Positions 58,100-58,864 of a stretch of 64,000 bases of DNA are shown here, one piece after another. The translations under genes and the position numbers were made by a program. Source of the DNA: Escherichia phage 121Q; sequence record NC_025447.1; one strand, given 5' to 3'. Under the pieces are notes generated by a model. It was not told where the DNA came from. It saw only the letters and a program-made list of their open reading frames with translations, and did no database searches. Position 1 is the first letter of the stretch. Each line of letters begins with the position of its first letter.

Positions 58100-58864
58100 T
58101 TAATCCTTTAATAATATGTTAAAATTATCATAAAAGTACTTTTTTAGTACCGAAATATAGTCTTCATTATACTTCAATCGAAGTAAATTTATTCCATTCT
58201 CGGTGCAGTACGTGTTTTTAATTTTATCATTGTGTTGAGTTTGTTTTAGTGATTTTGTTCCACCCCAATGCTCTGAACATTGAAAATGTTGTTCACCATC
58301 ATATTCGATACACAAGTTTAAATCTTCAATATAAAAATCAAATGGCAATGTTAAAATATTCTTACAATTATCAAATCTCTTTTCTCTAACATATTTAAAT
58401 GAAGATAATATATTTTCTATATCTGATACTGCCTTGGATTGAGTACTATCTCTCATACATTTTTCACACCCGTATCTACTATTCAAGTGATTATCAGGTC
58501 GCTGGTAGAATATACCATGTATTGGACAAATTATTGATATATGTGTTTTATTATTAACATAATTAGCCATACTATAATCAAATTTATTTTTAAATTTAAA
58601 ATTGGCTTTTTTCTTGAAATTTAAAAAATTATGTGGACTTTTTTGCCTATTTGTATTATATTCAATAGAACATTTCATGCATCCTTTGCCACATGTATGG
58701 TCATTTGGTGTTTGTAGAAAAAATCCATGTTTTGCACAGCCAATCCATACTTTTGTTTTAGCATTATGATATTTAACCATACTATAGTCATATCGTATAC
58801 CATGAACTTTTATCGCATTGGTTACAAATTTATATTTTGTCGATCTAGTGGTTGCATATTTCAT
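58100..58864 (-). CDS. homing-endonuclease-like protein: duplicated Cys/His-rich module plus PD-(D/E)xK-like nuclease domain
   Basis: Two repeats HG(F/I)F.Q.P..H....GC.KC; C-terminal FDFYIEDLNLCIEYDGEQHF; basic; between two baseplate genes, own terminator upstream. Confidence 0.5.
   Translation of the reverse strand: MKYATTRSTKYKFVTNAIKVHGIRYDYSMVKYHNAKTKVWIGCAKHGFFLQTPNDHTCGKGCMKCSIEYNTNRQKSPHNFLNFKKKANFKFKNKFDYSMANYVNNKTHISIICPIHGIFYQRPDNHLNSRYGCEKCMRDSTQSKAVSDIENILSSFKYVREKRFDNCKNILTLPFDFYIEDLNLCIEYDGEQHFQCSEHWGGTKSLKQTQHNDKIKNTYCTENGINLLRLKYNEDYISVLKKYFYDNFNILLKD

What the first reader, a model, noticed from the sequence alone, without database searches (positions are those of the whole stretch)
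58100..58864. Homing-endonuclease-like gene inserted between baseplate genes
A basic 254-aa protein with two copies of a Cys/His-rich module (...KVWIGCAKHGFFLQTPNDHTCGKGCMKC and ...ISIICPIHGIFYQRPDNHLNSRYGCEKC) followed by a PD-(D/E)xK-like segment (FDFYIEDLNLCIEYDGEQHF) sits between the gp25-like and J-like genes with a 4-nt gap downstream and its own terminator and promoter-like box upstream. Free-standing homing endonucleases typically invade such conserved intergenic positions in T4-like phages.
Basis: partly seen in the sequence, partly recalled or inferred. Interest (0 to 1): 0.5.

Follow-up and report, generated by a model that had tools for sequence, protein, structure and literature searches.

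The report
Free-standing Vsr-like homing endonuclease gene
This is an intact selfish nuclease gene (two zinc DNA-binding modules plus a Vsr-type cutting domain) sitting between two baseplate genes of a jumbo coliphage; it is an ordinary kind of phage element, but relatives show gene-bearing, decayed, replaced and clean versions of the same site.

Summary
The ORF is real: 58100..58864 on the minus strand, 254 aa, basic, with two repeated Cys/His modules. The window is an Asteriusvirus (PBECO4-like jumbo coliphage), not a T4-like phage.

- **Distribution.** The gene is present in the window, JP4 and JNE01 and absent from about 30 close relatives. Phage TH47 carries an unrelated GIY-YIG endonuclease gene at the same point.
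- **History.** The closest homologues (46-64% identity) sit at the same gp25|wedge junction in much more distant phages. dN/dS is about 0.1. The "empty" sites are not pristine: HEG-less Asteriusviruses keep about 40 nt, and RaK2 keeps 28 codons, of the gene's 3' end. GAP32 has a clean site.
- **Corrections.** The upstream terminator and promoter-like box are ancestral, not the gene's own.

This is a new member of a known kind. Cleavage and homing are inferred, not shown.

The parts
58100..58864 (-). Free-standing homing-endonuclease-like gene, 254 aa
   Evidence: ORF. phrog_559 E 1.6e-57 and phrog_9084 'homing endonuclease' E 1.4e-23. 340 homologues. dN/dS 0.09-0.12.
58667..58825 (-). Zinc module 1 (residues ~14-66; ligands C43, H46, C62, C65)
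   Evidence: Internal repeat. The ligand columns are invariant in alignment A2. Weak DUF4379 'treble clef' match.
58454..58615 (-). Zinc module 2 (residues ~84-137; ligands C113, H116, C133, C136)
   Evidence: Pfam DUF723 at residues 86-136, E 4e-6, above the curated cut-off. Ligand columns are invariant or nearly so.
58115..58447 (-). Vsr-like (EDxHD-type) nuclease domain, residues ~140-250. Invariant residues: D176, E187, D189, G190, H193, D213, K216, R229.
58871..58874 (-). GGAG ribosome-binding site in the leader CATGGAGTGATGTATG
   Evidence: Sequence. The leader occurs once in the window. TH47's unrelated GIY-YIG gene has this 16-nt leader unchanged, and JNE01's copy of this gene has it with one difference.
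58881..58898 (-). AT-rich promoter-like box (AATAAATATTT ... TATATA); ancestral, shared with gene-less relatives
   Evidence: The same 11-mer also lies upstream of the lysozyme gene, at 59864-59874(-).
58906..58929 (-). Intrinsic terminator of the gp25-like gene (ancestral, not part of the mobile gene)
   Evidence: Conserved in all gene-less relatives.
58104..58109 (-). AAAGGA ribosome-binding site of the wedge gene, embedded in the last codons (K-D) of the endonuclease gene
   Evidence: Sequence. The same arrangement is seen in gene-less relatives and in distant gene-bearing loci.
58127..58150 (-). Codons ~239-246 (VLKKYFYD), the part of the gene that survives as a relic in the 'empty' sites of gene-less Asteriusviruses
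   Evidence: 19/24 identical and colinear. Shuffle fraction 0.003 over the whole region and 0.00025 over the last 60 nt. RaK2 carries a longer 28-codon relic.
58059..58079 (-). Cluster of mostly synonymous differences in wedge-gene nt +17..+37, linked to presence of the gene. Candidate recognition or immunity patch (inferred).
   Evidence: AGACAGTCTAATTTATATAGT is found in 3/3 gene-bearing genomes and 1/12 gene-less genomes. The commonest gene-less form is AGGCAATCAAATTTATACGCT.
57776..58095 (-). 5' end of the wedge gene showing one-sided conversion-like tracts in endonuclease-bearing genomes
   Evidence: JNE01 versus Turkey5: 98-99% identity elsewhere, 69-88% over 57994-58095. TH47 versus Turkey3: ~98% elsewhere, ~85% over 57776-58095. 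No drop on the gp25 side.

Best explanation
**What it is.** The ORF is a free-standing homing endonuclease gene. It belongs to the clade that joins tandem CapR/DUF723-type zinc modules to a C-terminal Vsr-like ('EDxHD-type') nuclease.

**Shown here**
- The protein has two ~55-aa CHCC zinc modules, then a ~110-aa alpha/beta domain with the Vsr / I-Bth0305I fold.
- That domain carries an invariant D...E-x-D-G-x-x-H...D-x-x-K set.
- The gene lies after the gp25 terminator and a conserved AT-rich box. It has its own GGAG site and ends 4 nt before the wedge-gene ATG, with the wedge ribosome-binding site inside its last codons.
- It is present or absent among near-identical phages and is under purifying selection.
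- Its lineage occupies this same junction in distantly related jumbo phages.
- Gene-less relatives retain its 3' end as a scar.

**Inferred**
- The gene is co-transcribed with the wedge gene from the conserved AT-rich box.
- In a mixed infection the zinc modules position the enzyme on the gene-less allele near the gp25|wedge junction.
- The candidate site is the first ~40 nt of the wedge gene, or the relic spacer.
- The Vsr-like domain, probably as a dimer like I-Bth0305I, cuts there.
- Recombinational repair from the gene-bearing genome then copies the gene plus 100-300 nt of adjacent wedge sequence.
For: **Architecture and fold**
- Pfam DUF723 and PHROG homing-endonuclease families match.
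- The internal repeat is confirmed.
- The AF2 model has pLDDT 91.7.
- A profile of the C-terminal domain aligns its D and E-x-D-G-x-x-H segment to the Vsr-like domain of AbaSI.
- D176 and H193 are 17 residues apart. That is the same spacing as D196 and H213 of I-Bth0305I (PMC3239194).

**Mobility signatures**
- Presence/absence among genomes that are 98-100% identical in the flanks.
- A second, unrelated GIY-YIG endonuclease gene sits at the same point behind the same leader in TH47.
- One-sided divergence tracts occur in the wedge 5' end of endonuclease-bearing genomes.
- A wedge-gene haplotype is linked to the gene.

**Site-specific lineage and decay series**
- All five closest non-Asteriusvirus homologues lie at the gp25|wedge junction.
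- Relics remain in gene-less Asteriusviruses and in RaK2.
- GAP32 has a clean site.

**Function retained**
- dN/dS is 0.087-0.12, and the zinc ligands and acidic/His residues are intact.

**Literature**
- The same architecture was described as a large outgroup of the EDxHD/Vsr homing endonucleases (PMC12350094).
- DUF723/CapR modules are predicted DNA-binding zinc-finger domains of other phage homing endonucleases; CapR's own DNA-binding domain is reported as a zinc finger (PMC10448857).
Against:
- Synonymous divergence of the gene between the window and JNE01 (dS 1.2) matches that of the flanking genes (1.07-1.7). There is therefore no sign of recent transfer between lineages. Vertical descent plus repeated loss could explain much of the distribution.
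- The relic in 'empty' sites shows that loss by deletion happened. Gain by homing is not directly demonstrated.
- The protein has two zinc modules where its closest distant relatives have three, which could mean partial decay.
- There is no significant sequence-level match to I-Bth0305I or to Hef-like proteins. Residue-by-residue superposition of the active site was not done.
- The haplotype association rests on few, phylogenetically non-independent genomes, and distant loci do not share it.
Confidence: 0.8

Rival explanations
1. The gene is a long-resident, vertically inherited nuclease kept because it benefits the phage, for example by cutting the DNA of co-infecting relatives (marker exclusion) or host DNA. 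On this view the patchy distribution comes only from deletions and ordinary recombination, not from homing.
For: - The gene sits at the same junction across phages whose gp25 is only 58-60% identical.
- Its dS equals that of the flanks, and its dN/dS of ~0.1 is close to that of the structural genes.
- Gene-less alleles are deletion scars.
Against: - The architecture and best structural match are those of homing endonucleases.
- A GIY-YIG homing-type gene replaces it at the same point in TH47.
- Localised one-sided divergence tracts lie next to the gene in otherwise 98-99% identical genome pairs. This is the pattern homing leaves.
- About 30 relatives do without the gene.
Confidence: 0.12
2. 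The gene is a decaying, catalytically dead remnant of a three-module endonuclease, on its way to the relic state seen in relatives.
For: - It is one zinc module shorter than the 303-310-aa relatives at the same site.
- P0004 begins with a CNKC that resembles the CxxC ending the zinc module that P0004 and the window protein lack (sequences, alignment; my reading).
- Relics elsewhere show that this lineage does decay.
Against: - dN/dS is 0.087 against JNE01 over dS 1.2, and 0.12 against JP4.
- All eight zinc ligands and the invariant D176/E187/D189/H193/D213/K216 are intact.
- There are no frameshifts or stops in any of the three Asteriusvirus copies.
- The model is confident throughout.
Confidence: 0.06
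3. It is an HNH endonuclease, as annotated in GenBank (JP4) and in PHROG 559.
For: The annotation strings seen.
Against: - No HNH family appears in the Pfam scan.
- The nuclease domain folds as Vsr / I-Bth0305I, not as a beta-beta-alpha-metal finger.
- The Cys/His residues belong to two repeated CHCC zinc modules upstream of the nuclease domain.
Confidence: 0.01

Closest known systems
CapR/DUF4379/DUF723-like zinc modules + EDxHD/Vsr-like nuclease homing endonucleases (described in phage group I and II introns, NAR 2025, PMC12350094)
   Same: Same domain plan: tandem ~60-aa zinc modules followed by a ~100-aa Vsr-like nuclease. That paper notes thousands of unannotated relatives. Here there are 340 hits in the protein search and 822 phage records.
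   Different: This gene is free-standing rather than intron-borne (no intron match). It has two modules rather than three to five. It belongs to a sub-lineage tied to the gp25|wedge junction. No member found here has published biochemistry.
I-Bth0305I, prototype of the EDxHD family (PDB 3R3P; PMC3239194)
   Different: I-Bth0305I binds DNA through NUMOD/helix-turn-helix motifs, not zinc modules. It is encoded in a group I intron in recA. Identity is only 20% over the aligned structure, with no significant sequence match. Its dimeric cutting of a pseudopalindrome with 2-nt 5' overhangs is known for I-Bth0305I only.
Hef and Hef-like free-standing endonucleases of T4-related and ViI-like phages (e.g. 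F-LimIII of LIMEstone1, next to a baseplate wedge gene; PMC3296691; PMC3239194 places Hef-type endonucleases in the Vsr-like family)
   Same: Free-standing lifestyle between conserved phage genes. Vsr/DUF559-type nuclease core. F-LimIII also sits just upstream of a baseplate wedge gene.
   Different: Hef-like proteins have no DUF723 modules (DUF7487 instead). Direct comparison is not significant: E 0.15, 26% identity over 62 aa covering the catalytic segment.
T5orf172 endonucleases with CapR/DUF723 zinc fingers (ICP1 and others; PMC10448857)
   Same: Same repeated zinc DNA-binding modules in variable copy number. Both are found at boundaries of genetic exchange between phages.
   Different: The catalytic domain is T5orf172, not Vsr-like.
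T4 Seg (GIY-YIG) and Mob (HNH) free-standing homing endonucleases
   Same: Intergenic position, sporadic distribution, co-conversion of flanking markers, and cases of one endonuclease gene replacing another at a site. TH47 carries a Seg-like gene at this junction.
   Different: Different nuclease folds.

Membership tests
EDxHD / Vsr-like homing endonucleases (I-Bth0305I type) | C-terminal catalytic domain with the Vsr-like alpha/beta fold | tested here: met
EDxHD / Vsr-like homing endonucleases (I-Bth0305I type) | Composite catalytic motif: conserved Glu, metal-binding Asp, general-base His, second Asp | tested here: inconclusive
   D176, E187, D189, H193 and D213 are invariant in 36 and in 24 homologues. 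The D176-H193 spacing equals D196-H213 of I-Bth0305I. The AbaSI alignment pairs the D and E..H segments. No residue-level superposition on 3R3P or 1CW0 was possible with these tools.
EDxHD / Vsr-like homing endonucleases (I-Bth0305I type) | Detectable sequence homology to family members | tested here: not met
   phmmer and two profile searches of PDB sequences did not retrieve 3R3P or Vsr. Only AbaSI was found, at E 0.009.
EDxHD / Vsr-like homing endonucleases (I-Bth0305I type) | N-terminal NUMOD / helix-turn-helix DNA-binding repeats | tested here: not met
   The N-terminus consists of two CHCC zinc modules (DUF723/DUF4379).
EDxHD / Vsr-like homing endonucleases (I-Bth0305I type) | Site-specific cleavage of the element-free allele | not testable with these tools
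   Needs purified protein and junction DNA from gene-less phages.
CapR-like zinc modules + Vsr-like nuclease outgroup (PMC12350094) | Several tandem ~60-aa domains related to CapR/DUF4379/DUF723 | tested here: met
   Two modules are present (DUF723 E 4e-6, DUF4379 weak). The published description gives three to five. Homologues here have two to four or more.
CapR-like zinc modules + Vsr-like nuclease outgroup (PMC12350094) | C-terminal ~100-aa EDxHD/Vsr-like domain | tested here: met
Free-standing phage homing endonuclease genes (lifestyle) | Own ORF in an intergenic position between conserved genes, not inside an intron or intein | tested here: met
   Separate ORFs with a 4-nt gap. No Rfam intron match.
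Free-standing phage homing endonuclease genes (lifestyle) | Sporadic presence among close relatives at a fixed site | tested here: met
   The window plus 2 of 47 matching database records (JP4, JNE01) carry it, and ~30 lack it, with identical boundaries. The same site is used in distant phages.
Free-standing phage homing endonuclease genes (lifestyle) | Co-conversion of flanking markers next to the gene | tested here: inconclusive
   One-sided divergence tracts of 100 and 320 nt occur in the wedge 5' end of JNE01 and TH47, relative to their 98-99% identical gene-less partners. This is suggestive but observational.
Free-standing phage homing endonuclease genes (lifestyle) | Super-Mendelian, nuclease-dependent inheritance in mixed infection | not testable with these tools
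   Requires phage crosses.
HNH endonucleases (database label) | H-N-H beta-beta-alpha-metal catalytic motif | tested here: not met
   No HNH Pfam family matches. The nuclease fold is Vsr-like.

The most novel reading that the evidence does not exclude
The gp25|wedge junction of RaK2 / GAP32 / Asteriusvirus-type jumbo phages preserves most stages expected of a homing-endonuclease life cycle for one site-specific lineage: an intact three-module gene, an intact two-module gene, a 28-codon relic, a ~40-nt relic, a clean site, and replacement by a GIY-YIG gene behind the same leader. Natural sensitive and resistant target alleles are in hand for mapping its specificity.
Probability: 0.4. Interest if true: 0.45.

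Novelty: new member of a known kind. Interest (0 to 1): 0.3.

Why it matters
- **Annotation.** The result corrects a widespread mis-annotation. These genes are labelled 'HNH endonuclease', 'hypothetical' or 'restriction enzyme' in hundreds of phage records.
- **A test case for the clade.** A small two-module enzyme with modular zinc DNA-binding units and a compact nuclease could interest people who engineer nucleases.
- **Phage evolution.** The junction shows how selfish nuclease genes come, decay and get replaced next to baseplate genes. It also marks a local recombination boundary in phages considered for therapy.
- **Limits.** None of this is surprising to a specialist.

Tried and rejected
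- **Sequence searches of solved structures.** The whole protein, the full-length profile and the C-terminal profile found no homing endonuclease or Vsr entry. Only AbaSI appeared, at E 0.009. The fold link rests on the predicted structure.
- **NCBIfam.** No family matched.
- **Paralogues in the window.** None was found by tblastn.
- **The leader as a repeated cassette signal.** CATGGAGTGATGTATG occurs once in the window, which is no more than chance.
- **Sigma-70 promoter scan.** There was no enrichment over shuffles. The promoter-like box is therefore only a conserved AT-rich motif. AATAAATATTT occurs twice in the window, both times upstream of baseplate-module genes, but the count is not above chance.
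- **Intron or ribozyme context.** No Rfam match was found.
- **Direct homology to Hef-like F-LimIII.** Not significant.
- **Read-through origin of the C-terminal tail.** I considered that the tail arose by read-through into ancestral spacer DNA. I rejected this as the main explanation for two reasons. The matching stretch covers the terminal helix that family members at other sites also have. RaK2's relic extends back into the core strand LLRIRYDE.
- **The haplotype as a general target signature.** Distant gene-bearing and gene-less loci do not follow the Asteriusvirus pattern. It stays a candidate only.
- **The HEG leader as the ancestral wedge leader.** It resembles the GAP32 wedge leader, but the resemblance is too weak to claim.

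Full report
**1. Observation**

The ORF at 58100..58864 on the minus strand is real.

- Upstream lies a gp25-like gene, 58934..59329(-) (PF04965).
- Downstream lies a 1153-aa baseplate wedge gene, 54634..58095(-) (phrog_10646).
- The stop codon (58100-58102) is separated from the wedge ATG (58093-58095) by 4 nt.
- The protein is basic: K+R = 40, D+E = 24.
- Its two Cys/His modules are a true repeat. The alignment score is 103, against 24.5 +/- 4.5 for shuffles.
- A terminator-like hairpin lies at 58906-58929(-).

**2. Which phage**

Megablast places the window in Asteriusvirus, the PBECO4/121Q-type jumbo coliphages. It is 97% identical to phage JP4. It is not a T4-like phage in the strict sense, although its baseplate genes are of the T4 type.

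**3. The protein**

- Pfam finds DUF723 on module 2, above the curated cut-off. It also gives weak DUF2726/DUF559 hits on the C-terminus.
- PHROGs gives 'HNH endonuclease' (E 1.6e-57) and 'homing endonuclease' families.
- The large protein search returned 340 relatives. Most are 290-430 aa, with more zinc modules and the same C-terminal domain.
- In 36 aligned sequences the zinc ligands are invariant or nearly so: C43/H46/C62/C65 and C113/H116/C133/C136. So are D176, E187, D189, G190, H193, D213, K216 and R229.
- An AlphaFold2 model built on that alignment is confident (pLDDT 91.7).
- Foldseek gives Vsr, RAP domains, TnsA and PvuRts1I.
- A profile of the C-terminal domain alone aligns its FDFY...IEYDG..H segment to the Vsr-like domain of AbaSI (E 0.009).
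- D176 and H193 are 17 residues apart, as are D196 and H213 of I-Bth0305I (PMC3239194).

No HNH family matches. Sequence-only searches of the PDB do not reach I-Bth0305I, so family membership rests on fold and motif pattern.

**4. Known relatives in the literature**

- A 2025 paper describes exactly this plan and calls it a large unrecognised outgroup of the EDxHD/Vsr homing endonucleases: three to five CapR/DUF4379/DUF723-like domains plus an EDxHD/Vsr-like nuclease (PMC12350094).
- DUF723/CapR modules are predicted zinc-finger DNA-binding units of T5orf172 endonucleases; CapR's own DNA-binding domain is reported as a zinc finger (PMC10448857).
- Hef-type free-standing endonucleases are placed in the Vsr-like family (PMC3239194).
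- The Hef-like F-LimIII of LIMEstone1 lies just upstream of a baseplate wedge gene. It has a DUF559/Vsr-type core and no DUF723. It is not significantly similar to this protein.
- In phage genomes the family is common: 822 records and 1432 places by tblastn, many of them jumbo phages. There are 300 structural matches among viral proteins.
- The window itself has no second copy.

**5. Presence and absence**

- JP4 (97%) and JNE01 (83%) carry the gene.
- About 30 Asteriusviruses lack it and have a 101-nt spacer instead.
- The flanks of the window are 98-100% identical to gene-less phAPEC6 and PBECO4. JNE01 is 98-99% identical to gene-less Turkey5. The polymorphism therefore exists within each lineage.
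- TH47 carries, at the same point, a 235-aa ORF of a different family: phrog_314 'homing endonuclease' at E 1.9e-14, with weak GIY-YIG and I-TevI DNA-binding hits.
- That ORF is preceded by the same leader, CATGGAGTGATGTATG, and also ends on the wedge ribosome-binding site.

**6. What is ancestral**

The terminator and the AT-rich box (AATAAATATTT...TATATA) are present in all gene-less relatives. The gene therefore sits between pre-existing signals and the wedge gene. The wedge ribosome-binding site AAAGGA lies in its last codons. Co-transcription with the wedge gene is inferred.

**7. A site-specific lineage**

- The five closest homologues outside Asteriusvirus (46-64% identity) all lie between a gp25 gene and a ~1154-aa wedge gene.
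- They occur in metagenomic phage contigs whose gp25 is only 58-60% identical, and whose wedge N-terminus is 76-81% identical, to the window's.
- Four of them have three zinc modules and one has two.
- All share the C-terminal tail SVLK.YF...FNI.
- A family member without that tail lies at another site.

**8. Selection and age**

- dN/dS of the gene is 0.087 (window versus JNE01) and 0.12 (window versus JP4).
- Its dS (1.2) matches that of the flanking genes (1.07-1.7).
- The gene therefore encodes a working protein and has diverged along with its neighbours. There is no sign of recent transfer between the two Asteriusvirus lineages.

**9. The 'empty' sites are scars**

- The spacer of gene-less Asteriusviruses aligns colinearly with the last codons of the gene.
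  - GTACTGAACTAGTACTTTACTGAT matches GTACTAAAAAAGTACTTTTATGAT at 19/24 positions.
  - The shuffle fraction is 0.003 over the whole 769-nt region and 0.00025 over the last 60 nt.
  - Read in frame, PVLN*YFTD-[5 codons missing]-LKE* compares with SVLKKYFYD-NFNIL-LKD*.
- Klebsiella phage RaK2 and its relatives have a ~210-nt spacer.
  - It ends in a 28-codon relic, LLRIRYDENHISVLIQHFKNTFNIILKE*.
  - The relic is 54-73% identical to the C-termini of the intact genes (tblastn E 4e-8 to 5e-6) and is preceded by stop codons.
- GAP32-type phages have a short clean spacer.
- Together with the intact two- and three-module genes and the GIY-YIG replacement, the junction shows gene-bearing, decayed, replaced and clean states of one site, as expected from a homing-endonuclease life cycle.

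**10. Traces of conversion**

- In JNE01, the first ~100 nt of the wedge gene (57994-58095) drop to 69-88% identity with Turkey5.
- In TH47, the first ~320 nt drop to ~85% identity with Turkey3.
- The gp25 side shows no drop in either pair.
- Wedge nt +17..+37 read AGACAGTCTAATTTATATAGT in all three gene-bearing genomes and in one of twelve gene-less genomes (phAPEC6). The commonest gene-less form is AGGCAATCAAATTTATACGCT, which differs mostly at synonymous positions.
- This patch is a candidate recognition or immunity site, but distant loci do not follow the pattern.

**11. Conclusion**

The gene is a free-standing homing endonuclease gene of the zinc-module + Vsr-like clade. It is intact and under selection, at a junction its lineage has long occupied.

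- Shown: architecture, fold, distribution, relics and selection.
- Inferred: cleavage of gene-less alleles and homing.
- The main rival is a resident nuclease lost by deletion, with no homing. It is not excluded, but it fits the local conversion tracts and the GIY-YIG replacement less well.
- This is a new member of a known kind and of modest interest.

Noticed in passing
window 59345-59833 (-) and 59870-62533 (-): A stand-alone 162-aa lysozyme gene is a paralogue of the C-terminal lysozyme domain of the adjacent 887-aa gp5-like hub protein: 52% identity over 158 aa, E 7e-57. The pair is conserved in all Asteriusvirus relatives examined.
   Followed up: partly
L004/L010 (phage TH47), locus L004 1600-2307 (-): An unrelated Seg-like GIY-YIG endonuclease gene (235 aa, phrog_314 E 1.9e-14) occupies the same gp25|wedge point. 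It sits behind the same 16-nt leader CATGGAGTGATGTATG and ends on the wedge ribosome-binding site. This looks like one endonuclease gene replacing another.
   Followed up: partly
L032 2890-3135 (Klebsiella phage RaK2; same in Muenster, K64-1, KP13-7, RCIP0023): The gp25-wedge spacer of RaK2-type phages holds an unannotated 28-codon pseudogene remnant of this endonuclease lineage, LLRIRYDENHISVLIQHFKNTFNIILKE*, preceded by stop codons.
   Followed up: yes
window ~56000-56700 and ~59800-61000: There are two mosaic patches, one in the middle of the wedge gene and one in the hub gene. In them the window drops to 85-92% identity with JP4, phAPEC6 and PBECO4. Elsewhere it is mostly 95-100% identical to them. 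This suggests recombination patches in baseplate genes.
   Followed up: no
window 58888-58898 (-) and 59864-59874 (-): The 11-mer AATAAATATTT occurs only twice in 64 kb. Both copies are in intergenic spacers just upstream of minus-strand baseplate-module genes. It resembles the T4 late-promoter motif TATAAATA (from my own knowledge). The count is not above chance.
   Followed up: partly
L003/L008 (phage phAPEC6): phAPEC6 lacks the gene but carries the wedge 5' haplotype otherwise found only in gene-bearing genomes. It appears to be a recombinant, or a gene-less allele that may be resistant to cutting.
   Followed up: partly
L031 (phage CMSTMSU, UNVERIFIED_ORG record): The wedge and gp25 region of this record is annotated as several short fragments, and my anchor motifs were not found in it. 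This suggests sequencing or assembly errors in that record.
   Followed up: no
JP4, TH47, KP13-7 and other jumbo phage records: Several related jumbo phages carry 2-6 places matching this endonuclease family elsewhere in their genomes, for example next to a DNA polymerase exonuclease subunit gene in GAP32. The 64-kb window has only this one copy.
   Followed up: no
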